64,000 nucleotides of DNA from a virus: IMG/VR virus record IMGVR_UViG_3300036791_001056, positions 82,954 to 146,953 of that record; one strand, given 5' to 3'. Of the stretch, positions 37,404 through 64,000 are shown in pieces. Under the pieces are notes generated by a model that had not been told where the DNA came from, ran no database searches, and saw nothing but the letters and a program-made list of their open reading frames with translations. Every line of letters starts with the position of its first letter. Position 1 is the stretch's first letter. The translations under genes were made by a program, and so were the position numbers.

Positions 37404-37468
37404 GGCACAGCACAACACAGCACTGCGCAGCAGAGAACAGATCAGCACAGCAGACCGCAGCTCAGCGT
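37404..37468 (+). ncRNA. Pentamer AGY-NN array, 13 units
   Basis: GGC AC AGC AC AAC AC AGC AC TGC GC AGC AG AGA AC AGA TC AGC AC AGC AG ACC GC AGC TC AGC GT. Confidence 0.75.
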
Positions 37469-40909: not shown

Positions 40910-40912
40910 GAT

Positions 40913-40957
40913 GCTGTGCTTAGCTATATTACGCTTTAATTTTCTGAGCTCAGCCTT
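40913..40957 (-). ncRNA. Short pentamer AGY-NN array, about 9 units
   Basis: Plus strand gctgt gctta gctat attac gcttt aattt tctga gctca gcctt. Confidence 0.6.
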
Positions 40958-48892: not shown

Positions 48893-49036
48893 GGGCCGCG
48901 CGCCGTTGAGCGCTCGCCGCGCTGCAGCACGCGGCTGAGCAGTAGCGCGCCGTTACCCGCCACAGCTTAACGATACTCTCACATCCTGGCCGGGCGCACA
49001 CCCTCGGCTCACGGCTCGGCCGCTGCGACTGGCTGC

Positions 49037-49339: not shown

Positions 49340-49359
49340 AGCTTCGCACCTCTCTGAAG

Positions 49360-49419
49360 GCTCTGCTTTGACACGCTATGCTCGTCTTTGCCATGCTTGT
49401 CTTTGCTGCGGATAGTTGA
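49360..49419 (-). ncRNA. Pentamer AGY-NN array, 12 units
   Basis: Plus strand gctct gcttt gacac gctat gctcg tcttt gccat gcttg tcttt gctgc ggata gttga; fills an intergenic gap. Confidence 0.7.
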
Positions 49420-49420
49420 C

Positions 49421-50137: not shown

Positions 50138-50598
50138 GTGAGAGCAGCCCCAGCCGTGGGCTCACCCAGTGCAGCAGAGCAGGCCCCGGATGATGCTCAG
50201 CGGCAAACGCCTCATCGGCTGCGCTGATCTCGTCATCGACCCAGGCAAACGGCCGGCCCGCGGCGTGCTCAATGAGCTTAGGCAGCTTCCAGTGATGTGA
50301 CGACACCCAGCGCTCAGGAATACGCAGCGCGGTCTGAGGCAGCTCGGGCAGGCCGGTCTTCGGCGCTACCCACTCGTTGGCGTCCTGCCACGCGGTGCCC
50401 CACACCAGCTCGAGCGGCAGCGCCAGCAGCCACTCACCGTGGCTTGGGTTCAGCCACACACGCAGAGGCCTCCGCGGCCGGCCGTACACATCTCGCCCGG
50501 CTTGCGGGTACCGGAACGTCTGGTAACCAGCCGGCCGCCCACGGGTTCAGCGGCCCGTCCACGTCCAGGTACAGCAACGGCAGCTCGGTAACGCTCAT
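50079..50598 (-). pseudogene. HAD-superfamily (RNA-repair HAD-like) phosphatase, frameshifted near 50530
   Basis: LLYLDVDGPLNP in one frame; RVWLNP.HG, LVWGTAW, WK, RPFAWVDD in another. Confidence 0.7.
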
Positions 50599-50644
50599 CA
50601 CCTCCGCTCAGCTCGTGTACATTATACCATAAGCGGGCCCAGCA

Positions 50645-51211
50645 TCAGTCATGCGCATACTCCTCGACCTTGATGCTCACCCGGCTCACCGTGATCCGAG
50701 CGTGATCGCCGAAGTGCTCAAGCAGCACGTCATCAAACGCGCCGGAGCCGAGAGCACTCTGCAGCGCGAGGCACCGGTCAAAGCGCGCTTCGTCTGGCCC
50801 GCTGTACTTACTCGTCTTATAATCGCGCTTCCCGAGCGCACCACTGGGCTGGATCCCGTCCCAGACGTTCTCCGCGATCTCATCGCGCTGGGTGTGACGG
50901 GCTGCGCCGCACATGCCGCAGTACAGCTCCTGCTCGGTAAGCGAGTGCTGGCACTGCTGGCACTCAGCGGCCGCGGTGACGTCGCTGATGACCGGCATGA
51001 CCGCGAGGCTCTCGTATACGTTGAAGATGCAGGGCTCACCGTCATTGAAGTACGGCGTGTACTGGTACCACCCGAACCACTCGATGCCGTCGTCATCGAG
51101 CAGCGCCTGCATGAGCGGCGCCAGCTCATCGAGCGGGCGCTGCGGGACGCGGGAGTCCCCCCGGCAGATCTCACCGTCCACTGGGATCCCGAGAAAGCTG
51201 GTGTGACTCAC
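50645..51211 (-). CDS. Conserved hypothetical protein
   Basis: AAGGAG RBS; W.QYTPYFNDGEPC.F...FGDHA.ITV. Confidence 0.7.
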   Translation of the reverse strand: MSHTSFLGIPVDGEICRGDSRVPQRPLDELAPLMQALLDDDGIEWFGWYQYTPYFNDGEPCIFNVYESLAVMPVISDVTAAAECQQCQHSLTEQELYCGMCGAARHTQRDEIAENVWDGIQPSGALGKRDYKTSKYSGPDEARFDRCLALQSALGSGAFDDVLLEHFGDHARITVSRVSIKVEEYAHD

Positions 51212-51242
51212 TTCTGCGCTCCTTTTCTCTCTAATGACTGCA

Positions 51243-51340
51243 GCTGTCCTGTGCTGAGTTAACACTGGGCTATGCAATGCACCGGTGAGCTGAACTTTGC
51301 TAGACTTCTCTACGCTCCTGGCTGGCTGAAGCTGAGCTAA
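51243..51340 (-). ncRNA. Pentamer AGY-NN array
   Basis: Plus strand actgg gctat gcaat gcacc ggtga gctga acttt gctag acttc tctac gctcc, plus flanking units. Confidence 0.65.
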
Positions 51341-51504
51341 GGAAAACTTACATCGAGCGGTGCGCTGGCTCGACGGATACCACCGTGAGTGACCGCGCCC
51401 AGATGGACGGCAGCACCCGCTCGGTGCCCTGCTCCGGGGCACCGGCCCCGCTGAATGAGTTGCCATTCGAATACGTGAGCATCTGCTCTGCCTCTCGTCT
51501 TGGA

Positions 51505-51610
51505 ACTGCGCTGAGCTGAACCTACGGTTAGCTTGACTTAGCTAGACCGAGCTGATCTACGCTCCACTGATCCACGCTGATGTATGCTAAGCTGAGCTAC
51601 TCTCTGCTGT
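51505..51610 (-). ncRNA. Pentamer AGY-NN array, 18 units in register plus 3
   Basis: Plus strand cctac ggtta gcttg actta gctag accga gctga tctac gctcc actga tccac gctga tgtat gctaa gctga gctac tctct gctgt. Confidence 0.8.
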
Positions 51611-51698
51611 GTGTCAAATGAACCCGATCGTGACACCGATCACCATCAGCGCCGTGATCGCCAGCAGCAGCCACACGATCCGGATCTGCCCGCTCTCA

Positions 51699-52271
51699 TC
51701 ACGCACGCTCATCACCCTCAGCTATCTTCACATCGTCATGGCGATGGAGACGCGCATGCTCCAGCTCGATGTCACGCGTTGATATGAGCACAAAGTCGTG
51801 CCCGGCGGGGTACCGGTCGTGATCATGGTGCATGTGCTCGATGAGCGCGCTGCGGTCACCCACCAGTGACCGCAGGTGATCGGCTGCGCTCACCTCAGCC
51901 GCCACTGATAGGCCGAGCGTGCTGAGCCGCTGCTCACGCATCTTTGCCCCGCTCATCCACGGCTTGATGGGCATTCCGCTAATGTAGTCACCCGGCGTGG
52001 GCAGCCAGCCCAAGTCCTCGAGAATGTGCTGCTCCGCGATGAGCCGCACCGGCACCTCGATGAGCCCGCCCGAGGTCTTCTCGAGGTCAACGACCCGGCC
52101 AAACACGCGCTGGCAGAGCCACACGCCGTACGTGTTGTGGAACAGCGCCCGGTGCCGGACGTCGCCCACGAACTGCTTGGAGCTGTCGATCAGCTCTTCG
52201 ATGGCGATGTAGTCGCTCGGATCACCTCCCCACTTCTTAGCGGCTGACCGAGCGTGATACCACGAGTTCAC
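51699..52271 (-). CDS. DUF6915-like protein
   Basis: HARSAAKKWGG...DSSK...D.RHRAL.H...VPVRLIAEQHILEDLG. Confidence 0.7.
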   Translation of the reverse strand: MNSWYHARSAAKKWGGDPSDYIAIEELIDSSKQFVGDVRHRALFHNTYGVWLCQRVFGRVVDLEKTSGGLIEVPVRLIAEQHILEDLGWLPTPGDYISGMPIKPWMSGAKMREQRLSTLGLSVAAEVSAADHLRSLVGDRSALIEHMHHDHDRYPAGHDFVLISTRDIELEHARLHRHDDVKIAEGDERA

Positions 52272-52555
52272 AGCTCCACCCACTCGCTCTCAGCCAGCCG
52301 CAGCCCGGTGCTCGCCAAGACTGCCCACACGTTCGCGGCGCTCAGCTCATCTTCATCACCAGTTCCCGGCCGCATGCTCTCGCTCACCGCGAGCACCACG
52401 CGGCCGATGACCGCGTCACTCACGTCGGGCAGCGCTCGGCGCAGCTCATCAGCAATGGCTGGTGCGATCGTGCCCCACTGCTCTGGGGTGTGCACTGCCA
52501 AGATGTCCGCGAGGGAGCGGAGCTGCGCTCGCTGGACCACTCCGTAAGAATTCAC
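52268..52555 (-). CDS. Hypothetical protein
   Basis: GGAGG RBS; coupled. Confidence 0.5.
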   Translation of the reverse strand: MNSYGVVQRAQLRSLADILAVHTPEQWGTIAPAIADELRRALPDVSDAVIGRVVLAVSESMRPGTGDEDELSAANVWAVLASTGLRLAESEWVEL

Positions 52556-52634
52556 CGCTGTCTTCCTCCCGCAGCGCGGTAACCGAGCACGAAGCCGGTC
52601 ACCAGCGCCACGCTGACTGCCCACACGATCATTG

Positions 52635-53006
52635 CTACCGCCTCCGCCACTTAACAGTCTTCTTCTCCACCCGGCCGGCCGCTGGTGCCACCACCTCTTC
52701 GATTCCCTGGAACAGCACACCAGCGCGTCCCTTGACCTCATCAGTGAGCCACGACTGCTGGCCGTGGTAAAAGCCACTGCGCCACCAGCCCAAGACCGGG
52801 CGCACCGCTCGCCACGTACCGCCCACCTGCGCCGTGACCAGCTCATCAGCGAGCTGCTGCGCCCGCTGCGCGTCTTGGGTGCCGAGGACGATGACTCCCG
52901 ACTCGACCTCAGCGTCATCGTGCAGCATGTAAGCTATCACCCGCAGCGGCTGGTACGTCTTACCGTTGGGCCGGGTGAACGTCTCCGCCCCGAGATCATC
53001 GCTCAT
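52635..53006 (-). CDS. Hypothetical protein
   Basis: GGAGG RBS; TRPNGKTYQP...VLGT motif. Confidence 0.6.
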   Translation of the reverse strand: MSDDLGAETFTRPNGKTYQPLRVIAYMLHDDAEVESGVIVLGTQDAQRAQQLADELVTAQVGGTWRAVRPVLGWWRSGFYHGQQSWLTDEVKGRAGVLFQGIEEVVAPAAGRVEKKTVKWRRR

Positions 53007-53166
53007 GCCGGCTCCTCCGCCTGCTCACGCGCCGCCACCGCAGCGCTGCCGTCAGCAGCACCGCCAGTGCCGCAGCTCCCACGCTGACGACCAGCGTCAG
53101 CATTACCGCCGTGACCGATGGAGGCTGCTGATGCGAATAATACCACCACATCACATCACGCCAACG

Positions 53167-53373
53167 TCATTTGCGCTCGTTTCTGGCCAGTGCTGCGTGA
53201 ATGCCGTGAGAGTAGCCCAGCAGCCAGCTGGCGCGCCCGCCATACTCCATCGGAACGTGATCAGGCATCCGGTCAGGCAGCACCTGCATCATCGCGGTGT
53301 GCCCGTCCAGGTCCAGCACGCGCCGGGCATCGTGCAGGCTGCGCGCCTGCCCCGCATCGTATGCGTCACTCAC
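53167..53373 (-). CDS. Hypothetical protein
   Basis: Operon position. Confidence 0.45.
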   Translation of the reverse strand: MSDAYDAGQARSLHDARRVLDLDGHTAMMQVLPDRMPDHVPMEYGGRASWLLGYSHGIHAALARNERK

Positions 53374-53394
53374 AGCTCACACTTTCCTCATCAG

Positions 53395-54183
53395 TCACAA
53401 GAATGCCAAGTCATTGATGTCCAGCTCACTCATCAGCCGGGTGATCTCACCCTGCAGCCGGCTCATCCGAGCGTGCTCAGCGTCGATTCCCGCCGCCGCA
53501 ACGGCGCGGCGTGCCGCGTTGGCGCTGAGCACAGCCGCCAGCTGCTTAGGCGTGAGCTCATCATCTCGGGCGTTGCCAGTGGCGTAACCGTCTTCGAGAT
53601 CAGCGTCTTGCTGCATCTCATAGTATGAGTTAACCTGACTCTCGCACAGCTCCAGCATGCGCTGGAGCTGGCGGATGTGCTCGAGCCGCTGCTCCGTGAC
53701 CGGGTTTGAGTGCTTAAGCGCCACTGGCGGCTGCCGGCCGATCATCCTCCGGACAGTCATCAGTACAGCTCCAGCCCCGCCGGTCACCTGGTCCACCGCG
53801 TCCGCCCAGTCAGGCCCGACCGCCACGGCCGTCCTGGTGGGCACACCGTGGAACTCAGTGCGCCCCGCATCGGTGATCTCACGGGCCAGCACGCCGGCGG
53901 AGCGCGCCTCAGCCAAGACCTCGAGGAGGCCCAGCTCACCGGGCACCTGGCACACGATCTTCGCGAATGACCCGCTGACCCAGCGCAGCTCAGGCTCGGT
54001 CAGCTGAGCGCTCATGACGATCAAGTAGTACTGCGCCGGGAGCAGAAGATGATTGGCCTGCAGCCGCTCAGTGAGCCACGCCAGCGAGGCGTGAGCGCCC
54101 TGCGCGATCTCCTTGCCCCGCCGCATCCCGAGGTCGCGGCGGATCACGATGACCTGCTTAACCTCACGCTCGGCGCTCATCAC
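53395..54183 (-). CDS. pth2: Pth2-type peptidyl-tRNA hydrolase, apparently joined to the next ORF by a 1-nt insertion
   Basis: KQVIVIRRDLGMRRGKEIAQGAHAS, KIVC, DAGRTEF, T.VAVGP, VDQVTG. Removing one G near 53776 gives the usual ending GLELY* overlapping an ATG. Confidence 0.85.
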   Translation of the reverse strand: MMSAEREVKQVIVIRRDLGMRRGKEIAQGAHASLAWLTERLQANHLLLPAQYYLIVMSAQLTEPELRWVSGSFAKIVCQVPGELGLLEVLAEARSAGVLAREITDAGRTEFHGVPTRTAVAVGPDWADAVDQVTGGAGAVLMTVRRMIGRQPPVALKHSNPVTEQRLEHIRQLQRMLELCESQVNSYYEMQQDADLEDGYATGNARDDELTPKQLAAVLSANAARRAVAAAGIDAEHARMSRLQGEITRLMSELDINDLAFL

Positions 54184-54346
54184 CCGGCCCGCCTGCCGTC
54201 CTGGAACGCCCGGTCATACAGGTCACGCAGCCGGAGCTCACCTGCCTCATCAGCCGTTACCTCTCGGATCACAGTCTCACGGCGGTGATCGTACGGCTGA
54301 TCGCGCAGCCACGACTCGTCACGCAGCCACTCATCACTGAGCTCAG

Positions 54347-55000
54347 TCATGCTACCGGATCACTCTCTGACTCGTGGCCAACGCAGAAGTCAGGCCCATT
54401 CTCCGGCTCGCAGTCCAGGGTGTGCGGCGGCGCCGGCAGGTCGCGCTCGCCGCGCTCCTCCCAGCCGATGCTCCGGCCCAGGTTGAGCACCTGCCCGATG
54501 AGGCTCTTGACGGCGAGCTCCGCGCGGCTCTCCTCAGCGCGCTCCGGGATCCGGAGGTGCGCCAAGATCTGGCTGGCGAGGTCATCGAGGCGCAGCCGGT
54601 CAGCATCAGCTCCAGGAGCGTCATCGAGACCTCGGTCACGCATGATGCCCCAGAGCGGGCCCGCGGTGAACTCGACGGCGCTGGCCCACTCTTCACCGCG
54701 CAGCTCACGGATGAGCAGGTGGATAACCGCGGCGTACGGGTGATCGACCGCCTTGCGGAACGCGGTGTGGAAGCCTTCTCCCAGCAGCGAGAAGAACGTG
54801 TCGTAACCGACCGGTGAGCCGGCCACAGACTCCTCCGAGCGCCGCTGGCTGTAGCCCGCAGCACTGCCCTGATTCCAAGCTGAGTGAATGACCCGCCTCA
54901 TCAGCCGGTCACGCTCCACGCCGCTGCAGGCGTTCTCAGCGACCTGCAGCGCCTGGTGAATGAGAGCGCGCTGCTGCTCAGCGTCAGCGAGGCTAGCCAC
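54347..55000 (-). CDS. Hypothetical protein
   Basis: Long ORF on the operon strand. Confidence 0.55.
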   Translation of the reverse strand: MASLADAEQQRALIHQALQVAENACSGVERDRLMRRVIHSAWNQGSAAGYSQRRSEESVAGSPVGYDTFFSLLGEGFHTAFRKAVDHPYAAVIHLLIRELRGEEWASAVEFTAGPLWGIMRDRGLDDAPGADADRLRLDDLASQILAHLRIPERAEESRAELAVKSLIGQVLNLGRSIGWEERGERDLPAPPHTLDCEPENGPDFCVGHESESDPVA

Positions 55001-55292
55001 GGTGAGTCACCGCCGTCACGGCCGCCGCCTCCTGGCGCTCCAGCCAGAACTTCGCGCCGTTGATCTCGAGCTCGATGCGCCCGTCACTGGGTGTGTTCCG
55101 GTAGATAGCATCAGCCAGCTCGCTGGCACCGGCCTGGAACCTGGCCACGATCGCGATGACGCGGCTCTTACCGAGCCGGGCGCCCGGGATGCGCTCTCGG
55201 CGGAGCATGACCGCACCGGCCTGCAGGCGGTCGATGCAGCTGCTCAGCTCGCGCGGCAGCCGGCGCATCGATCCCGCGAAGTCTTCATGCAT
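54993..55292 (-). CDS. Hypothetical protein
   Basis: GAGGAG RBS. Confidence 0.5.
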   Translation of the reverse strand: MHEDFAGSMRRLPRELSSCIDRLQAGAVMLRRERIPGARLGKSRVIAIVARFQAGASELADAIYRNTPSDGRIELEINGAKFWLERQEAAAVTAVTHRG

Positions 55293-55353
55293 CTGGCTCT
55301 CTCCTCTCCACTTCCTTATTTAGTATTGACGGCGCGTCAGCGGGTGGTGCCTA

Positions 55354-55626
55354 TCACCATCCGTCCTTCCAGAACAGTGACCCGGCCTCATCGAGGCCAC
55401 CCAGCCACCGCGGCAGCCGGACGCGCGGCGCGGCGTAGCCAGCCAGCACCCACAGCGCGCTGAGCGTGGTAGGCGCCGTCCGCACCGCGGCGAGACCGCT
55501 CTCAGATGTCGAGCAGCCGCCTGACCACCTCCGGCGGACAGCCGGGGGGATCCGGCGGTACACCACGACCAGCGCGACCAGCGCGCGCTGAGTCACACTC
55601 ACCTTACGCACCACTTCACTCCTCAT
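55354..55626 (-). CDS. Hypothetical protein, weak YidD-like pattern
   Basis: LVVVYRRI.P...CS.S..GL.AV. Confidence 0.4.
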   Translation of the reverse strand: MRSEVVRKVSVTQRALVALVVVYRRIPPAVRRRWSGGCSTSESGLAAVRTAPTTLSALWVLAGYAAPRVRLPRWLGGLDEAGSLFWKDGW

Positions 55627-55767
55627 CTTCCTCAGTTCCCTGGTCAGCCACGCCCGCCAAGAGCTCAGCGGCGGCCAAGTCGTGAGCGCGCTGCATGTTC
55701 ATCGCGAACACCTCACTCAGCGAGTGCTTCTGGCCGCACCAGCAGCCAATGTGCCGGTGAAGTAGGC

Positions 55768-56184
55768 TCACGATGACTTTGACTCTGCTGAGCTGGCCGT
55801 TGTGACGATGTCATCCTGGCGCAGCACAGCGGAGATGTCGCGCTGATCACTCACTGAGAGCGTGGCAGTGATGTCACCCAGCGTCATGCCCATGTCGAAC
55901 TCACGCAGCAGCGTGACGATGGCCCGCAGCCTCAGCAGCGCCGAGCAGGTGCGCTCCCGCTCGGCGATCTGCCGGGCAGCCGCCTCGAAGCCCTTGCGGT
56001 AGCCGCGCTCCTCGGTGAAGATCTCAAGGACCACGAGAGCGTCCTCGACTGCCCGCTGCTCCGCGTGAACGAAGTCACGGTGCATGCTCCCGCCGTATCC
56101 CGAAGTAGCCTTGACGACGCGCTGGATCTCACTGTACGCGGCCACCGTCTCACGGCTCATGGTCCGCGTCACCTCTCGCGCCAC
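55768..56184 (-). CDS. Hypothetical protein
   Basis: GAGGAG RBS; -10 TGTGGTATAGT near 56341-56351. Confidence 0.55.
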   Translation of the reverse strand: MAREVTRTMSRETVAAYSEIQRVVKATSGYGGSMHRDFVHAEQRAVEDALVVLEIFTEERGYRKGFEAAARQIAERERTCSALLRLRAIVTLLREFDMGMTLGDITATLSVSDQRDISAVLRQDDIVTTASSAESKSS

Positions 56185-56366
56185 CTGCGTTCTCCTCTCT
56201 GCTCTGTTCCTGTTTTATTAGCGCGCCACTGAGCTGTGAGGCTCAGTGGCGCCAGAACGTTCTTGCTAACTCCACGGTCCCACGGTACATCCCTTCGCTC
56301 GGGAGTAAGAACTGCCACATTCAACTGCGTTCAAATAGTGACTATACCACACGCGCTGCCGGCTGG

Positions 56367-57050
56367 CTAGTCACCGGCGCTCGCTGGCGCTGATCGCGCG
56401 GCGGCCGCGTTCTTCAGCCCCTGCCGGTACTCACGCATCCGCCGCCGCTTACACTCCTTGCACTGGTAATCGACACCTGACGGGCGCTTGGTGTTCCGCC
56501 AGAAGGCGTCGCGCGGCAGGTCAGTCTTCTTACACGGCCCGCTGCAGCTGAACAGCTGTGCTATGAGGAAGCCCTGCTCATCGCGTGCTCCGTCCGGCGG
56601 CTCGGTCTCCAGCTGGCCGACAGGCACAGCCAGGGCGGCCACGACGTCACCGAGCGCCTCAGCCGGCACCTGACTCACGACAGCCGGCAGCACGGCGCCG
56701 CTCTGGCGGCGAGCGCTCACGACGGCCGCGGCGAGCGGCGCTGACGGCATGCTGGAGATGAGCTGCAGCTGCCGCCTGACCGCGGCGGACTGAGCCAGCG
56801 AGATGCCCGCTGCGGGCAGCGGGGCCTGCGGGGTCCCAGCCCACTGCGTGACTGCCCGCCGGCACCGGCTGTCGGTGTAAGCGTCGATGACGTGCATCAG
56901 CCGGGAGACGAATACCGGGTCGCAGTGCCATCCCAGCGTCTGCCACACCGCTGCTTCAACCGTCTCCCGGTTGACGACGGTACTGCCCGGCACCAAGTCG
57001 AGAGCCCGAGAGAGCAGGGGCCGCCTCGTTGATCGCATGATTAACGGCAA
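56367..57050 (-). CDS. Hypothetical protein with C-terminal zinc finger
   Basis: CSGPC...F...QCKECK. Confidence 0.6.
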   Translation of the reverse strand: MPLIMRSTRRPLLSRALDLVPGSTVVNRETVEAAVWQTLGWHCDPVFVSRLMHVIDAYTDSRCRRAVTQWAGTPQAPLPAAGISLAQSAAVRRQLQLISSMPSAPLAAAVVSARRQSGAVLPAVVSQVPAEALGDVVAALAVPVGQLETEPPDGARDEQGFLIAQLFSCSGPCKKTDLPRDAFWRNTKRPSGVDYQCKECKRRRMREYRQGLKNAAAARSAPASAGD

Positions 57051-57096
57051 CCTTTATCATCAGCGTGCTGAGTGATCAGCAGCTCTTTTTTAATTC

Positions 57097-57225
57097 GGTG
57101 ATCTGTGCTCTGCTGTGGTATTCTCGGACAGGCTTAGCTCAGCTTAACTACGCCATGCGGTGCTGCGGTATGCTAATCTTACAGGCTCAGCTTTACTGCG
57201 CCAGTGCCGGTTGCGGTGAGATCAG
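57097..57225 (-). ncRNA. Pentamer AGY-NN array downstream of the RAMP partner gene
   Basis: 17 in-register units at 57097-57181 (ggtga tctgt gctct gctgt ggtat tctcg gacag gctta gctca gctta actac gccat gcggt gctgc ggtat gctaa tctta), plus a shifted run. Confidence 0.8.
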
Positions 57226-57231
57226 AAGATG

Positions 57232-57789
57232 TCACCTGCCACGCGGCCAGGCTGGCTGTTTCACTGGCCGCTCGTACCGGCTCGTGATGACCTCGCCATC
57301 AACTGGCGCCGCCGGCTCAGCCTCTCCGAACAGCGCTGCCTCGATGCGCTCAATGCGGTCTTCAACCGCCGTCATCCGGCGGTGCAGGCCCACGATGATG
57401 GTCCGCGTCGCCATGAAGCGCTGGTACTCCGAGTCCGTCATGCCGGTCGTGTCACCGTGAGTCACGACCTCGAGGGCGCGGCCCATCTGCCGGTCGGCCC
57501 GCATCCGGTGACCCTGCGCCACCACGGCCAGCTCGCTCGGCTTGCCGACCCGGTAGCCCTGGCCGCGCGCCGCGATGAGGACGCGGCCGTAATCACGCAG
57601 CAGCAGTGGGCGAGCGGCGGTGACGGCGGCGCGGATGACGGTCTTGAGATCCGGGTCACCGCTGATGCCCAGGGACTGGGCGAGGTGCTCGAAGGTGAGC
57701 AGCTGGCCGAAGGCTGCCTCAGCGGCGATGCTGGCGATGATGGACCGCTGAGAGCGGTCTCCCTTAGGCTGGAATCGTGTCATGGTCAC
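57232..57789 (-). CDS. Winged-helix-like + coiled-coil protein in the RAMP operon
   Basis: LLTFEHLAQSLG...LIAARGQGYRV wing motif; flanked by arrays on both sides. Confidence 0.65.
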   Translation of the reverse strand: MTMTRFQPKGDRSQRSIIASIAAEAAFGQLLTFEHLAQSLGISGDPDLKTVIRAAVTAARPLLLRDYGRVLIAARGQGYRVGKPSELAVVAQGHRMRADRQMGRALEVVTHGDTTGMTDSEYQRFMATRTIIVGLHRRMTAVEDRIERIEAALFGEAEPAAPVDGEVITSRYERPVKQPAWPRGR

Positions 57790-57830
57790 TTCCTGTGTTC
57801 CTAACTCAGTTCCTGGTGTGATGCGCCGTA

Positions 57831-57970
57831 CCTGTACTGCGCTTTTCTGCGCTGAGCTTTACTCCACTTAGCTGATCTTATCTTAACCCTGCTGATCACA
57901 GCTAGGCTGTGCTCTGGTTAGCTCTGCTAAGCTACTGTGTGCTGATGCTTCGCCTACGCTTAGCTTAGTT
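57831..57970 (-). ncRNA. Pentamer AGY-NN array directly after the RAMP gene, 21 units in perfect register
   Basis: Minus strand AGC TT AGC AG AGC TA ACC AG AGC AC AGC CT AGC TG TGA TC AGC AG GGT TA AGA TA AGA TC AGC TA AGT GG AGT AA AGC TC AGC GC AGA AA AGC GC AGT AC AGG. Confidence 0.85.
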
Positions 57971-57976
57971 ATGTGA

Positions 57977-58600
57977 TCAGCTCGTGATCTTGGAGATCTC
58001 CGGCGTGAAGCGCCCGTAGCCAATGCGCCGGGCGTTGCACAGGCCCTGCCGGCCGGTGATCTCCATGATGGTGACGAAGTCGTCCCAGTTGATGGCGTCG
58101 AGCATGACGACCATCTCGGACCGCAGCGCCCAGTCGCGGAAGATCGGCCGGACCCGGACGCCCATCGACCTGGTCGCGGTGGTCGGAGTGAGGTTCACGA
58201 TGGTCTTGAACTGGAAGCGCGAGTCCTCCCAGAGTCCCTTGATGGTGCGCGGCCCATCGTACATGATGGGCAGCTCAGCCTGCACGAGCTGGACGGCGCC
58301 GCGCTCGATGGCCTTGCCGAGGCGCAGGGCCCGAGCTGCCTGCGTCATCGCGGCCATCACGCACTTCGCCGGGACGATCGGGATCCCGGCGCCGTCGGTG
58401 TACAGGCCCATCCGCCACTCCAGGGCGAACACCTGCTCCTGCTCGGCCTCGGTGAGCCCCTTCTTCTTAACGAGCGCGTCCTTGTCCTTCCGCAGCGGGT
58501 CGATCATCGCCTCGATGTTGTCGAGGACCAAGCCGCTCTCACCGGTGAAGACCACGTTGGCCCGGGTGAACCCCTCGAAGGTGGACGTTGCTGCTGGCAT
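57977..58600 (-). CDS. Stand-alone Cas7/RAMP-like protein (Vipr-like)
   Basis: First strand VVFTGESGLVL; PIVPAKCVMAAM (equivalent to the RAMP IPGSSIKG helix); RVRPIFRDW; C-terminal glycine loop GLCNARRIGYGRF. No cas1/cas2 or CRISPR array in the window. Confidence 0.75.
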   Translation of the reverse strand: MPAATSTFEGFTRANVVFTGESGLVLDNIEAMIDPLRKDKDALVKKKGLTEAEQEQVFALEWRMGLYTDGAGIPIVPAKCVMAAMTQAARALRLGKAIERGAVQLVQAELPIMYDGPRTIKGLWEDSRFQFKTIVNLTPTTATRSMGVRVRPIFRDWALRSEMVVMLDAINWDDFVTIMEITGRQGLCNARRIGYGRFTPEISKITS

Positions 58601-58628
58601 CTCTGCTCCATTCGCTGGTGTGCTGGGT

Positions 58629-58703
58629 GCTGAACTGAGCTGAGCTCAGCCGTTCTTCACTGAGCTTAGCTGGGCTAGGACATGCTCTGGCCTGCTGTGC
58701 TAG
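58629..58703 (-). ncRNA. Pentamer AGY-NN array forming the 5' leader of the RAMP gene, 15 units
   Basis: Plus strand gctga actga gctga gctca gccgt tcttc actga gctta gctgg gctag gacat gctct ggcct gctgt gctag. Confidence 0.8.
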
Positions 58704-58711
58704 CTGGACTC

Positions 58712-58720
58712 ACTATACCA
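58712..58720 (-). promoter_or_regulatory. Extended -10 promoter of the RAMP/array operon
   Basis: TGGTATAGT 8 nt before the first array unit; no clear -35. Confidence 0.6.
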
Positions 58721-58812
58721 TAGACAGAGGCAGATCACGCACAAACCGGCAGCCGCACCCATCAAAGGATGAGCGCGACTCAATTCTCTTGCATCATCAG
58801 CTGGCCGAGCGA

Positions 58813-59151
58813 TCACTCACCCAGCACCACCGCAATGTCGGTTTTCACCGCAGCGCGCTCAAAGTGCCGGCGCTGCCAGTCATCGCTGCCGGGCAGCTTC
58901 ATCCGCCACTCTACGATCCGGTACCAGCGCCGCAGCCGGCGCGCGTTCCGCTCGGCTGCTTCAACGATCTCACGGGTGATGAGCGTGTTGTCCCAGCGGT
59001 GCACGCCACCGGCGCAGCCACCGTCGCACCACACGTAGTGCAGCGCGTCGAGCTCCCGGTTCTTCCGCTCCAGGACCAGCTGCATCTGGCGGATCTGCGC
59101 GGCCTGGCGGCGGAGCTTCTCACGGAGCTGTGCTTCATCCACACACATCAT
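58813..59151 (-). CDS. Hypothetical protein
   Basis: GGAGG RBS; LDALHYVWCDGGC.GG.HR motif. Confidence 0.6.
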   Translation of the reverse strand: MMCVDEAQLREKLRRQAAQIRQMQLVLERKNRELDALHYVWCDGGCAGGVHRWDNTLITREIVEAAERNARRLRRWYRIVEWRMKLPGSDDWQRRHFERAAVKTDIAVVLGE

Positions 59152-59503
59152 AAGTATGCGCCTCCGGAATGTCACACACCGCAAACTTAGGTTTAGGCTT
59201 GGTGGCGAAGTGATCGCACAACGTGATGTCATCCCAGACTGCCTGGCGGCTCTTCTTCATTACCGGGCTAGCGCTGATGAGTGCGCGGATGGCTGTAAGA
59301 TCCTCGGCCGTCCACCGGTCGTCGGGTACCTCTCCCCTGATCGGGTACACCCAGCGGTGATGCTCACGCTCCGGCAAAGGGAACCAGCGCAGAATGTGCG
59401 CCATCATGCGATCATCGTCAACCTGGTCTGCGACCCTGTTTTGCATGTGGGTGTTCAAGTTGCTGAACCACGCCTCAATGAGCGCGTTATTTTTCTCACT
59501 CAC
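59135..59503 (-). CDS. Hypothetical protein
   Basis: Coupled to the BRO gene. Confidence 0.55.
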   Translation of the reverse strand: MSEKNNALIEAWFSNLNTHMQNRVADQVDDDRMMAHILRWFPLPEREHHRWVYPIRGEVPDDRWTAEDLTAIRALISASPVMKKSRQAVWDDITLCDHFATKPKPKFAVCDIPEAHTYDVCG

Positions 59504-60177
59504 GTGAGATCCTCGTTCACATTGATGCCGATGACTACGTGCTGCACCGGCACAGGAACACGCAGCTTAGCCCGCGAATCAGCGGTGAACAAGCTCTCCA
59601 CAGGCATGCCGAGCCAGCGAACTGCTCGGTGAGCTAGCCCGTCACTGACGCGCAAGTCACCGTAACACTGCTTGGCGTAGCTCGTGTTGACGAGCGGCAC
59701 ACCAGGTATGTCCAGCGCGTTCATGATCTCCTTGGCTCGCCGGGCCGGTACCTGACGATCGCGTATGACATCGAGGAACGGCTGCCGGCCGTACCGCTGG
59801 CGGTTACCCGGTGACACGGGCTTCTTGAACCCCTTTACCCGGTAATAACCGTTCTTACGCAGCTGGGGCAGCACCTCGGTATACATCATCCGCTGGAAAT
59901 CGATAGCTTTAGGCTTACGTGACTGGAACGTCAGCTGCCACATGCCCGGCTCACTGATCAAGATCATCTCACGTGCCCCGCTAGGAGTCTCGATCATCTT
60001 ACTGGTCTTGAACTCGTCCCAGACACGATCGTACGCGTCAGATGCAGAAGCGAACTCCAGGTAATCGCAGATGTCCTTCGCGATGAACCAAAGCTCACCA
60101 CTCTCATCGGTCGCGCGCCTCAGCGTGACGTACTGAAGTGGGAACATATCTGTGATGGGCTGCAGTGCTGTTGTCAT
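59500..60177 (-). CDS. BRO-N domain antirepressor-like protein
   Basis: WFIAKDICDYL...ISEPGMWQL...SRKPKA..FQ....EVLPQLRKNG.Y. Confidence 0.85.
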   Translation of the reverse strand: MTTALQPITDMFPLQYVTLRRATDESGELWFIAKDICDYLEFASASDAYDRVWDEFKTSKMIETPSGAREMILISEPGMWQLTFQSRKPKAIDFQRMMYTEVLPQLRKNGYYRVKGFKKPVSPGNRQRYGRQPFLDVIRDRQVPARRAKEIMNALDIPGVPLVNTSYAKQCYGDLRVSDGLAHRAVRWLGMPVESLFTADSRAKLRVPVPVQHVVIGINVNEDLT

Positions 60178-60183
60178 GCTGTG

Positions 60184-60213
60184 ATTTTATAGAAGCGAAA
60201 ACTTGACTGTCAA
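60184..60213 (-). promoter_or_regulatory. Promoter of the BRO gene, leaderless
   Basis: TTGACA-18 bp-TAAAAT, 6 nt before the ATG. Confidence 0.65.
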
Positions 60214-60251
60214 ATCCTGGGTGCTATCGACTTTAAGCTACTGGGAGCGAG

Positions 60252-61697
60252 TTACAAGATCACCAAGCACCGCCGCTTGGCCCGCGTTATGGCGGTGTAG
60301 AGCCACCGCGCTCGGTCCGGCCCGCCAGGACCGGCGCCGACCACCGCGACGTCGTTGGCCTGGCTGCCCTGCGCCTTGTGCGCCGTGAAGCAGTAGCCGT
60401 AGTCAAACGCGGCGCCGGAGCGCTCATCGGGCCGCAGGACGCGCCCGGCGCCGAGCTGCCCGAGGTCGATGCGCTTCATGACCTTGACTCCCGCGCCGGG
60501 CTCGGCGCCGTCGAGCTCGATGATGACGTCCGCGGTCTTCCGGCCCTGGCTGGTGACCTCGGCCACCGTTCCCACGATGCCGTTGAAGACCCGCTCCTGC
60601 CACCCGGCGGCGTGCCAGCGCCCGTCCCGGCGCTTCATGACGTCGCACTCGTAGGTTCCGAGGGCGGTGACTCGGTCACCGCCCGCGATGGGCGCCTGGC
60701 TCTGAGTGTGGGCGGCGTGGACCAGCTTGTTGATGTCAGCGCGCTTGGAGTTGGTCCAGGTGATGATGAGCGAGTCCGGCCCCGGCACCAGCCGGTCGGG
60801 AGCCAGGGCGTGGTAAGCGTCGGGCCGCGCGCTGCCGCTCATGACCACGGCGCCGGCGCCGTACCGCCCGATTGGCGTCATCCCGATGCTGCGGGCATGC
60901 AGCGCCATCGGGACGATCCCGGACGCCTCCGCCTGCCGGAAGTTCTCTTCCAAGACGATCTCCGGGCTCAGCATCCAGGGGCTGAGCGCGCCCTTGACGG
61001 GCGGCAGCTGGCCGTGATCTCCTACGAGGAGTACCGGCAGCCCGAAGCGCCGGATGTCCTGCACCTGCTCCTCGGTGACCATGCTCGCCTCATCAAGCAC
61101 CAGGAGGTCCCGGTGACCGCCGGCGAACAGCCTGGGTTCGAACTCCAGGTGAGACTCCACGCGGCAGCCAGGGGCTGGCTCCGGGCCCGCCGCAGCGGCA
61201 TCGAGGCGGCAGGCGCCGCAGCGGAAGCGGGGGCACTCGCACTCATCAGCCTCGAAGCCCCGGCCGCAAGCGCACTGCTGCTCCTGCGCCGTCTCTCCTG
61301 ACCTCAGGCAGGTGTGCCAGCCCTTAGGGCGGTACAGCAGCGAGTGATACGTGCCGCAGCGGGCCCGCTGCAGCTCATCAAGGTTCCGGCGCAGCACCCA
61401 GGCTGCCTTATTAGTCGGAGTGGCGAACGTGATGCGCTTGCCGAGCAGCCCGGCGAGGGAGGCGGCGAGCATGCTCTTGCCGGTCCCGGCCAGGCCGCCG
61501 AGGCTGAGCACCGGGTACTCCTGCCCGGCGCCGTGAGTGTGCGGCGCCTCATCGGCGTCCGGGTCCAGGCCGAGGCATACCGGGTCGGTGCAGTACCGGA
61601 CGGGCGGAGCGCTCTTCAGCCACTCAGCGATGCGGTCCACCGCGCTCTGCTGGCTGGCGCTGAGCGTGAACTCGGCCGCTGCCGCTAGTATGGTCAC
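60252..61697 (-). CDS. RecD/Dda-like SF1B helicase with Cys-rich insertions
   Basis: GLAGTGKS, TPTNKAA, LDEASM, VGDHGQLPPV, RQAE, TAHKAQGSQ, LYTAITRA. Confidence 0.9.
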   Translation of the reverse strand: MTILAAAAEFTLSASQQSAVDRIAEWLKSAPPVRYCTDPVCLGLDPDADEAPHTHGAGQEYPVLSLGGLAGTGKSMLAASLAGLLGKRITFATPTNKAAWVLRRNLDELQRARCGTYHSLLYRPKGWHTCLRSGETAQEQQCACGRGFEADECECPRFRCGACRLDAAAAGPEPAPGCRVESHLEFEPRLFAGGHRDLLVLDEASMVTEEQVQDIRRFGLPVLLVGDHGQLPPVKGALSPWMLSPEIVLEENFRQAEASGIVPMALHARSIGMTPIGRYGAGAVVMSGSARPDAYHALAPDRLVPGPDSLIITWTNSKRADINKLVHAAHTQSQAPIAGGDRVTALGTYECDVMKRRDGRWHAAGWQERVFNGIVGTVAEVTSQGRKTADVIIELDGAEPGAGVKVMKRIDLGQLGAGRVLRPDERSGAAFDYGYCFTAHKAQGSQANDVAVVGAGPGGPDRARWLYTAITRAKRRCLVIL

Positions 61698-61915
61698 GGC
61701 TGAGCCGGTATGCTGGTGCGGACCGGCACGAGCTGCCGGCTCGCCCACGGGATCTCGGCCTGGCTGAGGGAGTTGGGCTCGCTGCGGCGGATGATCACGT
61801 CGTGCGGCCCGTCCTGATGCCGCTCGACCCACCACTTGACGTTCTCGGAGATCACGCTGCCGTCAACGGCGGTGCGGTAGACTTCGGTGCCTACCGGCAG
61901 CAAGTCCAGGCTCAT
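61694..61915 (-). CDS. Hypothetical protein
   Basis: GAGGAG RBS; -10 TGTGGTAGACT upstream. Confidence 0.55.
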   Translation of the reverse strand: MSLDLLPVGTEVYRTAVDGSVISENVKWWVERHQDGPHDVIIRRSEPNSLSQAEIPWASRQLVPVRTSIPAQP

Positions 61916-62042
61916 GAATCTCTCCTCTGCTCCGTTCCTTGCTAGTAGTCTACCACACTAGTGATGCCGGGTCTAGCGAGAACCAGCACAGCAGCGATGT
62001 TGATCGTCACCGTGTGGCCCTGGCCACGTGGCCAGCGGCCCA

Positions 62043-62458
62043 TCAGCGCACCGTCTCACACACGACCAGCACACCGGCCCAGCGCAGGAACTCGGCGGGC
62101 GACTCGAGATGCATAATGCCCGGCAGGTAGTGGAACACGTGCTCTCGCGGCCCGACGATGACGAGAGTCTTGCCCAGCGCCTGCGCCATGCCGAACTCGG
62201 CGTGGCGGCCGCCCTGCCCAGCCCCGACGACGTGAAGCTGACCACGGCGTGCGCGGCCGTCAGGTCCTCGATGTCCTCGAGTGCCTGCTGAGCGAGGAAG
62301 TCAGGTGAGTCCCGGGGTGGGCCACCGGGCACGTCGCTGGTGTCTTCGTGACTCACCAGCCACCGAGACGTGACAGCGTGTCCCGCCGCCTGAAGCAGGT
62401 CAGAATACCTGCGGATCTCAGCTTGCCGCTGGAAGGCAGCAGCGAGGTACATGATCAT
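62043..62458 (-). pseudogene. Nucleoside 2-deoxyribosyltransferase-like protein, frameshifted near 62213
   Basis: MYLAA...VTSRWL...DIEDL...; restoring one G gives GGRHAEFGMAQALGK...GPREHVFH.LP. Confidence 0.7.
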
Positions 62459-63113
62459 TGAGCGCTCTCTTCCGGTGTCATCAGGCCAGTCTGCTTATCA
62501 TCAGTGCTGGGCTCCGAGACGGCGCGCTCCCACAGCACGACTAGATAGACCGCGGAGCCTCCGGTCAGCTCACGCTGGTGCCGGCCACCGGTCACGATCA
62601 TCGTCACCAGTTCCCAGTCATCACCGGGTGACTAGAGGGGCTGCGGCGCCGGGTTGTGACCGAGCCAGCTCGCTGAGACCCACGTGAGAACAGCGCTCGA
62701 TCACGCCTCGCTCCCATCTGCGTCTTTCATCGTCTCGTCATCTCGTGACCAGAGGATCACGATGAAGCTGTCACCGGTGGATGAGCCCATCGCCATCGAG
62801 GCGAGCTCCCAGCCAGCGCCCGCCGGCGGCTTCACCGGAGCGCTCGCCGTGCTGGGCACGGCCCGGATGCTGGTCAGGGTAACGCGGTACTCCATGTATC
62901 GACAATACCATCGAGCGACTGGTGCTGTCAGGTCACCGCCAGGACAAGGAGGTAGCTGCTGTCGATACCCTGGCGGCGGCCAGCAAGAGATCCGCAGCCG
63001 AGAGGCTGACCGTGATTACGAGCCGCGATGCTGCTGAGCTGGCAGGCTAGCCAGCAAGGCCTCAGGATGAACGCTGGCGGCGTACCCCGGCCTGCTGTTG
63101 GTAACCAGCTGGC

Positions 63114-63605
63114 TCACCCGGCACTAGTACTTCTCGACCCTTCCAAGGCATTACCCGGCAGTGACCAGGCGCTCAGCTCGATGGCCCGGAGAGCGAGCGC
63201 GTCCCAGTGCCAGTCGCTCATCTGCCGCTGGTGCCAGCCCGGCGCCAGCTCTCGCCACCGCGGGTTCGGCGTGAGTGACTCGGCGCGCTGCCGAGCTGCG
63301 GCATCAGCAGCGCACCGCCGAGCGGCCTCCTGCCGCAGCGGGATGATGCCCAGCACGCTCAGCGCCCCGACGTCAGCCGCTGTCGCACCGTGCTGGCCGA
63401 GCCACAGCGCTCTCCGAGCTTGACTGCGTGACCGGCGAGTGGCCCAGCCGGCCTGCACCTCAGCTCGGCGGTCACGGGGCGGCGTGCTGCGTGCTCTCCG
63501 AGCTGGCCGCGCCGCGGGCTGGCTGGCTCGGCGAGCCCTCAGCAGCGCCGTCATGGCCAGCCGGGCCTCGTGCCGCTCACGCCGCTCATCAGGAGAAAGT
63601 GCCAT
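63114..63605 (-). CDS. Arg/Ala-rich hypothetical protein, leaderless
   Basis: TATAGT 7 nt before the ATG. Confidence 0.5.
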   Translation of the reverse strand: MALSPDERRERHEARLAMTALLRARRASQPAARPARRARSTPPRDRRAEVQAGWATRRSRSQARRALWLGQHGATAADVGALSVLGIIPLRQEAARRCAADAAARQRAESLTPNPRWRELAPGWHQRQMSDWHWDALALRAIELSAWSLPGNALEGSRSTSAG

Positions 63606-63699
63606 GTCAACTACTATATCTCAGCTTTGTGCATCCACGGTGTGCTATGCCTCACTCACCAAAACAAGCAAAATATCATCATCTATCATCATTAACGAG

Positions 63700-63910
63700 C
63701 CGTTACTACCGTGTTACTATCAGTTACTATTTATGTTACTATCCTTGACTAGCCAGTTACCACCGTAACTACCAAAATCTTATTTATGTTTACGTGTACA
63801 GGGGACGCCAGGTACACGTACTTGGATGGGTACAGCGTGGTAACAGTAGTTACTGCCAGGTCAGAGCTAGTAACATAGGTAGTAACAGCTAGTAACACCG
63901 GTAGTAACGG
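63700..63910. repeat. Origin-like cluster of GTTAC(T)/(A)GTAAC repeats in an AT-rich region
   Basis: GTTAC copies dominate on the left and GTAAC copies on the right, around an AT-rich core. Confidence 0.6.
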
Positions 63911-64000
63911 TGCCCGCTGACGACTGAAGCGCGGTGCCCATGTGGGCACCGCGCGTAGAAGTATTGGTCGGGGGGGTCTGCGCAACCCAGTTGTGGGCTG

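What the first reader, a model, noticed from the sequence alone, without database searches (positions are those of the whole stretch)
57831..57935. Decodable gapped guides: explicit target predictions
Stripping the constant triplets gives these guide-sense NN strings. Post-RAMP array: TT AG TA AG AC CT TG TC AG TA TA TC TA GG AA TC GC AA GC AC. Leader array: CT AC AG AG AT CT CC TA TC GA AC TG TC TC TC. 51610 array: AC AG GT TC TT AT TC GT TC GG GT TC TC CT TA CA TA GT. The strings are all different and are A/T-rich relative to this GC-rich genome. Inference: if one target base is skipped per unit, the targets are NNx patterns of about 45-60 bp. The skipped base could fall on codon wobble positions, which would make recognition immune to synonymous escape.
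Basis: inference. Interest (0 to 1): 0.8.

Follow-up and report, generated by a model that had tools for sequence, protein, structure and literature searches.

The report
Phage VIPR guide arrays, AGY type
The "gapped guides" are real 5-base-repeat guide-RNA arrays of a phage VIPR system, a CRISPR-related RNA-guided DNA silencer first described in 2026, here in a variant with an AGY scaffold and about 26 arrays spread over the genome, but none of the decoded targets could be found.

Summary
Observation confirmed.

The array lies between a 207-aa gene (57977-58600) and a 183-aa gene (57232-57783). The 207-aa protein is a Vipr. Its family profile hits PDB 36pp "SUSP1 Vipr protein" at E=5.6e-52, and its model (pLDDT 95) matches Csm3/Cas7. 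The 183-aa gene is a conserved partner (vap).

This is therefore a VIPR system (bioRxiv 10.64898/2026.04.26.720920).

It differs from the described systems in four ways:
- The scaffold is AGY, not GGY. This tracks changes at both published G1-contacting residues (H17 to D27, D177 to N189).
- There is no shared 3' tail, and arrays tend to end in AGG.
- About 26 arrays (298 units) are dispersed genome-wide.
- Some arrays fill inter-tRNA spacers.

No target was found in the phage's own genome or by exact-seed scans of IMG/VR, JGI metagenomes and GTDB genomes. Only the 1-base skip was scanned externally, and the scans could not tolerate mismatches, so this is a weak negative.

This scan has already reported VIPR systems on other DNA. 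I rate this a new variant of a known kind.

The parts
58712..58720 (-). Extended -10-like promoter element TGGTATAGT, ending 1 nt upstream of the leader array
   Evidence: Read directly from the sequence. The relative locus L057 has TATAGT in the same place. The consensus scanner did not call it. Inferred, not shown.
58627..58710 (-). Leader vrRNA-like array: 14 AG-anchored units (15-17 slots), ending about 25 nt before the vipr ATG
   Evidence: Relatives L002-L004 and L057 have an array in the same position.
57977..58600 (-). vipr gene: 207-aa Cas7-like RAMP of the Vipr family, G-loop GLCNARRIGYGRF
   Evidence: Family profile against PDB 36pp 'SUSP1 Vipr protein', E=5.6e-52; single sequence E=3.4e-6. 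AF2 model pLDDT 95.3. Top Foldseek hits are Csm3/Cas7 at E about 4e-7. It is the only copy in the genome.
57829..57965 (-). Post-vipr array, which is the finding: 23 AG-anchored units (27 slots), with AGG as the last unit
   Evidence: No significant RNA structure (z = -1.2).
57232..57783 (-). vap-like accessory gene: 183 aa, N-terminal winged-helix-like domain followed by long helices
   Evidence: 42-45% identical to the gene directly downstream of vipr in L003/L002, and 38% in L057. AF2 model pLDDT 77. Only weak Foldseek hits to MarR/OmpR/BirA winged helices, E >= 0.04. PHROG 5926, function unknown.
57100..57197 (-). Post-vap array: 8 clean units at 57100-57149, plus degenerate units upstream
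51503..51608 (-). The '51610' array: 17 AG-anchored units in an intergenic gap
51287..51316 (-). Short 6-unit array, the only one that falls inside a crude gene call
49358..49407 (-). 8-unit array, 13 nt from the next gene
40911..40950 (-). Weaker array (6 of 8 units in phase)
37429..37468 (+). 7-unit array on the plus strand, sense to the local plus-strand genes, followed by a stem-loop
26102..26327 (+). Three adjacent plus-strand arrays (14, 15 and 7 units), followed by a GC-rich hairpin

Best explanation
The window carries a VIPR locus of a 147-kb GC-rich phage. On the minus strand it runs: promoter-like element, leader array, vipr, array, vap, array.

By homology with SUSP1 Vipr, Vipr protomers should polymerise on the transcribed array, one protomer per 5-nt unit. 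They would sequester the constant AGY triplet and expose the two variable bases. The exposed NN bases of successive units would then pair with double-stranded DNA while skipping every third target base, giving sequence-specific binding and transcriptional silencing of a competing mobile element.

What is shown: the periodic arrays; Vipr family membership and the Cas7-like fold; the conserved vipr-vap pair; AGY arrays beside independent homologues; and covariation between protein residues and the first base of the repeat.

What is inferred from the published homologues: transcription and processing of the arrays, filament formation, the 1-nt skip, DNA silencing, and the nature of the targets.

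This clade reads A rather than G at unit position 1. The two residues that contact G1 in SUSP1 (H17, D177) are D27 and N189 here. The residues that hold G2 (R138 -> R151) and Y3 (R179 -> R191) are kept.

The other roughly 23 arrays elsewhere in the genome have the same unit composition, so they are probably further guides. They would be released from operon transcripts, and in the tRNA cluster by tRNA end-processing.
For: Protein:
- The family profile hits SUSP1 Vipr (PDB 36pp) over 190 of 192 positions at E=5.6e-52.
- The fold matches Csm3/Cas7.
- The G-loop and the Arg equivalent to R138 are conserved.

Locus:
- The downstream 183-aa gene is conserved next to vipr in L002, L003 and L057.
- AGC-NN arrays flank the homologues P0003, P0004, P0005 and P0008.
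- L005 shows three arrays, the first two closed by the same roughly 35-nt tail, which is the canonical vrRNA layout.

Covariation:
- Among 151 family representatives the pair at positions 27/189 is (H,D) 96, (H,E) 12 and (D,N) 10.
- All five independent (D,N) loci with DNA available have AGY arrays.
- The (S,D) locus L100/101 and the (H,D) locus L102 have GGH arrays.
- H17 and D177 contact G1 in the cryo-EM structures (10.64898/2026.04.26.720927, section 5).

Arrays:
- 26 arrays against about 0.5 expected. All lie on the strand of at least one flanking gene, and 25 are intergenic.
- No significant RNA structure.
- No self-targets, as the VIPR paper also reports.
- Arrays exactly fill inter-tRNA spacers.
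Against: - No target was found for any tested guide.
- In SUSP1, changing GGY to AGY abolishes silencing. Function with AGY therefore rests on the inferred specificity switch, which is untested.
- There is no conserved 3' tail of the kind described for type II vrRNAs.
- Arrays of up to 23-27 units exceed the published 9-16.
- Dispersal of 26 arrays inside operons is not described in the text I read of the three VIPR-specific preprints, and could mean another role.
- The NN composition fits antisense codon positions 1-2 better than the other frames, but no better than a uniform model.
- Expression of the arrays cannot be tested here.
Confidence: 0.68

Rival explanations
1. The arrays are bound by Vipr but act in cis or as decoys, not as DNA-targeting guides. 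Vipr filaments on intergenic stretches of the phage's own polycistronic mRNAs might control their stability, processing or translation. Alternatively the arrays might soak up a rival phage's Vipr.
For: - 25 of 26 arrays sit between genes. Where the flanks are tight, they start 4-25 nt after a stop codon and end 13-60 nt before the next start.
- They have no shared tail.
- No target was found.
- Decoy use of vrRNAs by satellites is published (10.64898/2026.10.15.759431).
Against: - All characterised Vipr proteins use such arrays as guides.
- The NN positions are highly diverse across arrays, as expected for guides.
- Arrays flanked by tRNAs would be cut out as free small RNAs.
- Array position next to vipr is conserved in relatives.
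Confidence: 0.2
2. The dispersed arrays have nothing to do with Vipr. They could be sites for another periodic RNA-binding protein (TRAP-like logic, one triplet per subunit every 5 nt), or unstructured purine-rich leaders that help translation in a GC-rich host.
For: - TRAP binds (G/U)AG triplets spaced by 2-3 nt (established knowledge).
- The arrays lie in the sense strand upstream of genes and show no significant structure.
Against: - The constant triplet is AG followed by C/T, not (G/U)AG. The base before AG is C 102, A 79, G 68, T 49.
- The same arrays flank Vipr homologues in five independent loci and change to GG when the Vipr contact residues change.
- Pfam and PADLOC searches of the neighbouring proteins (10 and 4 respectively) gave no RNA-binding family such as TRAP.
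Confidence: 0.08
3. The arrays are slippage microsatellites or a compositional artefact with no function.
For: TRF reports only weak period-5/10 rows in this region.
Against: - The units are not identical copies. Two of the five positions vary freely while AG is held.
- 26 arrays against about 0.5 expected.
- Strict strand polarity and intergenic placement.
- The feature is conserved across Vipr homologues of 34-38% identity.
Confidence: 0.01

Closest known systems
VIPR systems (Vipr + vrRNA + vap). Type II exemplars are Escherichia phage SUSP1 and a Pseudomonas fulva prophage. Sources: bioRxiv 10.64898/2026.04.26.720920; structures in 10.64898/2026.04.26.720927 and PDB 36pp.
   Same: - Phage-encoded.
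- A single small Cas7-like RAMP homologous to SUSP1 Vipr.
- A two-gene vipr-vap operon with a winged-helix-like partner.
- Long intergenic flanks made of 5-nt units with three constant and two hypervariable bases, in the same orientation as the genes.
- No CRISPR array or cas genes detected nearby.
- No self-targets.
   Different: - The constant triplet is AGY (C > T > A), not GGY.
- The two G1-contacting residues are D27 and N189 instead of H and D.
- No conserved 3' tail or pseudoknot; the last unit is often AGG.
- Arrays reach 23-27 units, against the published 9-16.
- About 26 arrays are spread over a 147-kb genome rather than confined to the locus.
- Some arrays lie between tRNA genes.
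- Targets are unknown.
Non-canonical VIPR arrays found by entropy periodicity (bioRxiv 10.64898/2026.10.21.760802: GAC/NN, CAC/NN, WGT/NN, TGH/NN next to Vipr-like folds)
   Same: 5-nt arrays with a non-GGY constant triplet beside a Vipr-like protein. WGT/NN overlaps the AGT units seen here.
   Different: - AGC-dominant units are not named in the text I could read. I did not check the figures or tables.
- That paper reports about 10 repeats per array.
- It gives no residue-level explanation for the non-canonical motifs, and mentions neither dispersal nor tRNA flanks.
Solo or orphan vrRNAs on satellites and VIPR-null phages (bioRxiv 10.64898/2026.10.15.759431)
   Same: vrRNA arrays located away from a vipr gene.
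   Different: There, 1-2 solo vrRNAs sit at the former VIPR locus of phages that lost vipr, or on satellites. Here, a phage that keeps vipr carries about 23 extra arrays scattered between unrelated genes.
Class 1 CRISPR-Cas backbone (Cas7/Csm3 filaments on crRNA)
   Same: The RAMP fold (Foldseek E about 4e-7, TM about 0.5), the G-loop, and one protomer per fixed step of the RNA.
   Different: No repeat-spacer array, no Cas1/Cas2, Cas10 or large subunit detected nearby. The step is 5 nt with 2 pairing bases, not 6 nt with 5 pairing bases. The system is virus-encoded.
TRAP (trp RNA-binding attenuation protein) sites
   Same: Triplets repeated at about 5-nt spacing in an mRNA leader.
   Different: The constant bases differ (AGY, not (G/U)AG). 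No TRAP-family hit among the neighbouring proteins searched. The arrays co-vary with Vipr.

Membership tests
VIPR system | Vipr protein: sequence homologue of the characterised Vipr (SUSP1 / X1U2U4 family) | tested here: met
   Family profile against PDB 36pp 'SUSP1 Vipr protein': E=5.6e-52, 190 of 192 positions. Single sequence: E=3.4e-6. 1380 family representatives at E<=1e-3.
VIPR system | Minimal RAMP fold (RRM core, thumb, glycine-rich loop) | tested here: met
   AF2 model pLDDT 95.3. Top Foldseek hits are Csm3/Cas7 of type III and type VII complexes, E 4e-7 to 1e-5. The G-loop is GLCNARRIGYGRF with G196 invariant and G183 and G186 nearly invariant. I did not inspect the thumb separately.
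VIPR system | Tandem pentanucleotide arrays (3 constant + 2 variable bases) in the intergenic flanks of vipr, same strand | tested here: met
   Arrays at 58627-58710, 57829-57965 and 57100-57197, all on the minus strand like vipr. Shuffle control.
VIPR system | Constant triplet GGY (canonical consensus) | tested here: not met
   The units are AGC 181, AGT 63, AGA 43, AGG 11. The papers allow 'a related consensus' (YNNNG, NNNNG) and list non-canonical motifs, so this marks a variant rather than excluding membership.
VIPR system | Invariable structured 3' tail after each repeat tract (type II) | tested here: not met
   No k-mer is shared by the 26 downstream flanks above background. AGG is enriched as the last unit instead (6/26 against 5/272, p=8e-5). 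The relative L005 does have a repeated tail.
VIPR system | vipr-associated accessory gene (vap), predicted DNA-binding | tested here: met
   The 183-aa neighbour is conserved beside vipr homologues (2e-42 and 4e-34; alignment). It is winged-helix-like, but only by weak fold matches, so the DNA-binding part is inconclusive.
VIPR system | Encoded by a virus or provirus, outside any CRISPR-cas locus | tested here: met
   IMG/VR virus record of 146,953 bp. Portal, terminase and Dda-like helicase genes are present. No cas or defence-system hits in the neighbours. No CRISPR-like repeats in TRF.
VIPR system | Arrays are expressed as small RNAs that co-purify with Vipr | not testable with these tools
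   Needs small-RNA sequencing and pull-down.
VIPR system | Guides match natural DNA targets under the 1-nt skip rule (at least 80% NN match), with no self-targets | tested here: inconclusive
   No self-target. Exact-seed scans of three public collections gave only chance-level hits.
CRISPR-Cas (class 1) | Repeat-spacer array plus adaptation and effector cas genes | tested here: not met
   No direct repeats of 25-40 nt with spacers. Only one RAMP gene in the genome. The neighbours are Bro-N, helicase, PTH2 and unknowns.
TRAP-type attenuation site | (G/U)AG triplets with 2-3 nt spacers, and a TrpBP-family protein | tested here: not met
   The base preceding AG is mostly C or A. No TrpBP hit among the ten proteins searched. 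I did not search the whole proteome.

The most novel reading that the evidence does not exclude
This phage has turned VIPR into a genome-wide guide factory. About 26 AGY-type arrays (around 300 units) are embedded between ordinary genes and between tRNA genes. They would be released by operon and tRNA processing, a natural counterpart of engineered tRNA-gRNA arrays. They would be read by a Vipr whose D27/N189 pair re-specifies the scaffold base from G to A.

A bolder variant is that the mRNA-embedded arrays also couple Vipr loading to the expression of the phage's own operons.
Probability: 0.35. Interest if true: 0.7.

Novelty: new variant of a known kind. Interest (0 to 1): 0.55.

Why it matters
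VIPR is only months old as a concept, and its rules come mainly from one E. coli phage clade. This locus adds three things.

1. It is a natural AGY-reading clade in which both residues that contact G1 in the SUSP1 structure have changed together. That gives a simple, testable code for how the protein picks its scaffold base, and a route to orthogonal VIPR tools.
2. It shows that one phage can carry more than twenty guide arrays scattered through its operons and its tRNA cluster. That widens where vrRNAs should be looked for, and suggests tRNA processing as a way of making them.
3. It gives a concrete set of 26 decodable guides from an uncultured 147-kb phage. Once the host or the source metagenome is searched with mismatch tolerance, those guides could reveal which elements the phage fights.

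Tried and rejected
Rejected readings:
- TRAP-like RNA site. This was my first idea. I dropped it after the Vipr hit and because the base before AG is not G/U.
- Microsatellite or chance. Rejected by controls.
- Rfam families in 49000-64000. Nothing relevant.

Searches for relatives that found nothing:
- DNA similarity to known phages: none.
- The helicase is only 29% identical to Pseudomonas or Caulobacter siphophage proteins, so the host stays unknown.
- Close relatives of the Vipr in IMG/VR: none. In GTDB genomes: none.
- The alignments were too diverse for the pattern search.
- DNA of the closest homologues P0001, P0002 and P0006 could not be fetched.

Target searches under the 1-nt skip rule:
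- Own genome at skips 0-2: all best matches were at most 75% and within the shuffled-NN controls, except one 8-unit guide at 14/16 that was also within its controls.
- IMG/VR with a 10-unit seed: 0 hits.
- IMG/VR with five 8-unit seeds: 9, 8, 19, 10 and 30 hits. Mean extension over the last two seed sets was 26-28%, which is chance level.
- A 10-unit exact run in L019/L023 lies in 39% GC contigs, and the skipped base falls on codon position 2. Rejected.
- JGI metagenomes: 0 hits for one seed and 13 for another.
- The best of those 13 (26/30 NN, wobble phase) lies in what looks like a mitochondrial atp1 gene, judged from the translated peptide, in 27-31% GC contigs. I judged it chance, roughly p 0.05-0.2 before multiple testing.
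- GTDB genomes with an 11-unit seed: 0 hits.
- The tRNA-flanked guide: 0 hits.
- Relatives' VIPR loci: no match.
- tblastn of the decoded antisense peptide against 50,697 phage records: no match.

Other tests:
- NN composition against codon frames: antisense positions 1-2 fit best among the frames, but no better than a uniform model.
- A shared 3' tail: none.

Full report
**What is there**

Read on the minus strand, window 57965-57829 is a run of 5-nt units with AG fixed at positions 1-2, mostly C or T at position 3, and two free bases.

The chain has 23 AG-anchored units. It has 27 slots if degenerate units are counted, and one phase slip near the 5' end. Nineteen AGs fall in one phase, against a mean of 8.1 and a maximum of 15 in 2000 dinucleotide-preserving shuffles.

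NN is 55% A+T in a genome that is 36% A+T.

**Context**

The window is the last 64 kb of a 146,953-bp IMG/VR virus record that CheckV rates complete. The record has portal, terminase, Dda-like helicase and Bro-N genes and no close relative among 50,697 phage records.

The array fills the 187-nt gap between a 207-aa gene (57977-58600, minus) and a 183-aa gene (57232-57783, minus). A second array (58627-58710) lies between an extended -10-like TGGTATAGT and the 207-aa gene's ribosome-binding site. A third array follows the 183-aa gene.

**The protein**

The 207-aa protein belongs to a large family: 1380 representatives at E<=1e-3.

- A profile of 77 members matches PDB 36pp, 'SUSP1 Vipr protein', over 190 of 192 positions at E=5.6e-52.
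- The single sequence matches the same entry at E=3.4e-6.
- Its AlphaFold model (pLDDT 95.3) matches Csm3/Cas7 backbone subunits of type III and type VII CRISPR complexes (E about 4e-7, TM about 0.5).
- It is the only such gene in the genome.

The 183-aa neighbour is 42-45% identical to the gene directly after vipr in L003/L002 and 38% in L057. Its model shows an N-terminal winged-helix-like domain followed by long helices, with only weak fold matches. That fits the published description of vap genes.

**What it is**

A literature search found bioRxiv 10.64898/2026.04.26.720920. It defines VIPR systems as:

- a phage-encoded Vipr RAMP;
- vrRNAs made of 9-16 YNNGG (GGY/NN) repeats plus a 3' tail;
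- a vap gene;
- recognition of double-stranded DNA by the NN bases with one skipped target base per unit, the skipped base usually on the codon wobble position.

The companion structural paper shows one protomer per repeat. It also names the contacts: G1 by H17 and D177, G2 by R138 and W178, and Y3 by a pocket that includes R179.

**How this one differs**

*1. The scaffold is AGY.* Unit position 3 is C 181, T 63, A 43, G 11.

- The profile alignment to SUSP1 places D27 at H17 and N189 at D177. R151 (= R138) and R191 (= R179) are kept.
- In 151 family representatives, the pair at these two positions is (H,D) 96, (H,E) 12 and (D,N) 10.
- Every (D,N) protein for which I could fetch DNA has AGC-dominant arrays. 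These are the window, P0003 (L002-L004), P0004 (L005), P0005 (L056) and P0008 (L057).
- The (S,D) and (H,D) homologues P0007 (L100/101) and P0009 (L102) have GGH-NN arrays.
- P0060 (H,D) has mixed GGC/AGC arrays.
- An Asp-to-Asn change at a base-contacting residue is a plausible G-to-A specificity switch. This is inference. It matters because GGY-to-AGY substitutions abolish silencing in SUSP1.

*2. There is no shared 3' tail* among the 26 arrays. Instead AGG is enriched as the last unit (6/26 against 5/272 elsewhere, Fisher p=8e-5), and relatives' arrays end in AGGCC. The relative L005 does show the classic layout: three arrays, the first two followed by the same roughly 35-nt tail.

*3. The arrays are long and many.* I count 26 arrays and 298 units genome-wide, against about 0.5 arrays in Markov surrogates. 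Every array lies on the strand of at least one flanking gene, and 25 of 26 are intergenic by my crude gene calls. Where the flanks are tight, arrays begin 4-25 nt after a stop codon and end 13-60 nt before the next start.

*4. Four arrays lie inside a 22-tRNA cluster* outside the window. One 11-unit array starts 7 nt after tRNA-Arg(tct) and ends 7 nt before tRNA-Arg(cct), so tRNA end-processing would release it as a free RNA of about 67 nt.

None of the three VIPR-specific preprints mentions dispersed or tRNA-flanked arrays in the text I searched or read. Non-canonical triplets (GAC, CAC, WGT, TGH) have been reported.

**Target tests**

Own genome, skips 0-2, all 26 guides: best matches were at most 75% of NN positions and within the shuffled-NN controls, except one 8-unit guide at 14/16 that was also within its controls. 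The papers likewise report no self-targeting.

Large collections could only be scanned with exact patterns, so I used a seed-and-extend approach, at the 1-nt skip only:

| Collection | Seed | Result |
|---|---|---|
| IMG/VR | 10 units | 0 hits |
| IMG/VR | 8 units, five seeds | 9, 8, 19, 10, 30 hits; extension at chance level (mean 26-28% over the last two seed sets) |
| JGI metagenomes | 10 units | 0 hits |
| JGI metagenomes | 9 units | 13 hits |
| GTDB genomes | 11 units | 0 hits |
| IMG/VR | tRNA-flanked guide, 9 units | 0 hits |

Two near-misses were examined and rejected:

- A 10-unit run in 39% GC contigs, where the skipped base falls on codon position 2.
- A 26/30 match in wobble phase to what looks like a mitochondrial atp1 gene, judged from the translated peptide, in 27-31% GC contigs. 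This is implausible for a 64% GC phage, and roughly p 0.05-0.2 before multiple testing.

The guides do not match the relatives' VIPR loci. A decoded peptide found nothing in cultured phage records.

NN composition fits antisense codon positions 1-2 better than the other frames, but no better than a uniform model.

The tools offered no mismatch-tolerant search of large collections, and gap sizes other than 1 were tested only on the phage's own genome.

**Verdict**

- Observation: confirmed.
- Interpretation: right in kind and already published as VIPR. The specific target predictions remain open.
- VIPR membership: about 0.9.
- That this array acts as a 1-nt-skip DNA guide: about 0.6.
- Main rival, about 0.2: the operon-embedded arrays act in cis or as decoys.

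This scan has already reported VIPR systems on other DNA. The class is therefore known, and what is new here is the AGY/D27-N189 variant, the missing tail, the genome-wide dispersal and the tRNA-flanked arrays.

Noticed in passing
Genome C1:36500-42000 (L103), outside the window: A cluster of 22 tRNA genes with AGY-NN arrays filling several inter-tRNA spacers. One example is L103:2169-2223, between tRNA-Arg(tct) and tRNA-Arg(cct), with 7-nt margins. This suggests vrRNA release by tRNA processing.
   Followed up: partly
L102:3740-3990: In a GGY-type relative (P0009), each array is followed by a hairpin resembling a tRNA T-arm (GGGGTTCGAGCCCC / GGGGTTCGGGTCCCC). ARAGORN calls no tRNA there. It may be a tRNA-like tail or processing signal.
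   Followed up: partly
All 26 arrays; window examples at 57829-57833 and 51503-51608: AGG units are rare inside arrays but common as the last unit (6/26 against 5/272, p=8e-5). Relatives' arrays end in AGGCC. This may be a 3' boundary signal replacing the type II tail.
   Followed up: partly
window 63674-63908: Two clusters of the 7-mer GTTACTA, spaced about 11 nt apart (63700-63745), and its inverse TAGTAAC (63865-63908), bracket an AT-rich stretch near the contig end. They look like iterons, perhaps an origin or operator region.
   Followed up: no
window 11227-17823 (-): A 2198-aa ORF combines portal, minor-head/head-morphogenesis and NUDIX-like PHROG matches, and contains 21-nt coding repeats at 14663-14803.
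   Followed up: no
window 53395-54183 (-): A phage-encoded peptidyl-tRNA hydrolase PTH2 domain (Pfam E=2e-24) in a 262-aa protein.
   Followed up: no
window 27282-29603 (-): The large terminase ORF is 773 aa, and its PHROG matches are split (residues 47-702). This is compatible with the intein another note on this genome reported. I did not check it.
   Followed up: no
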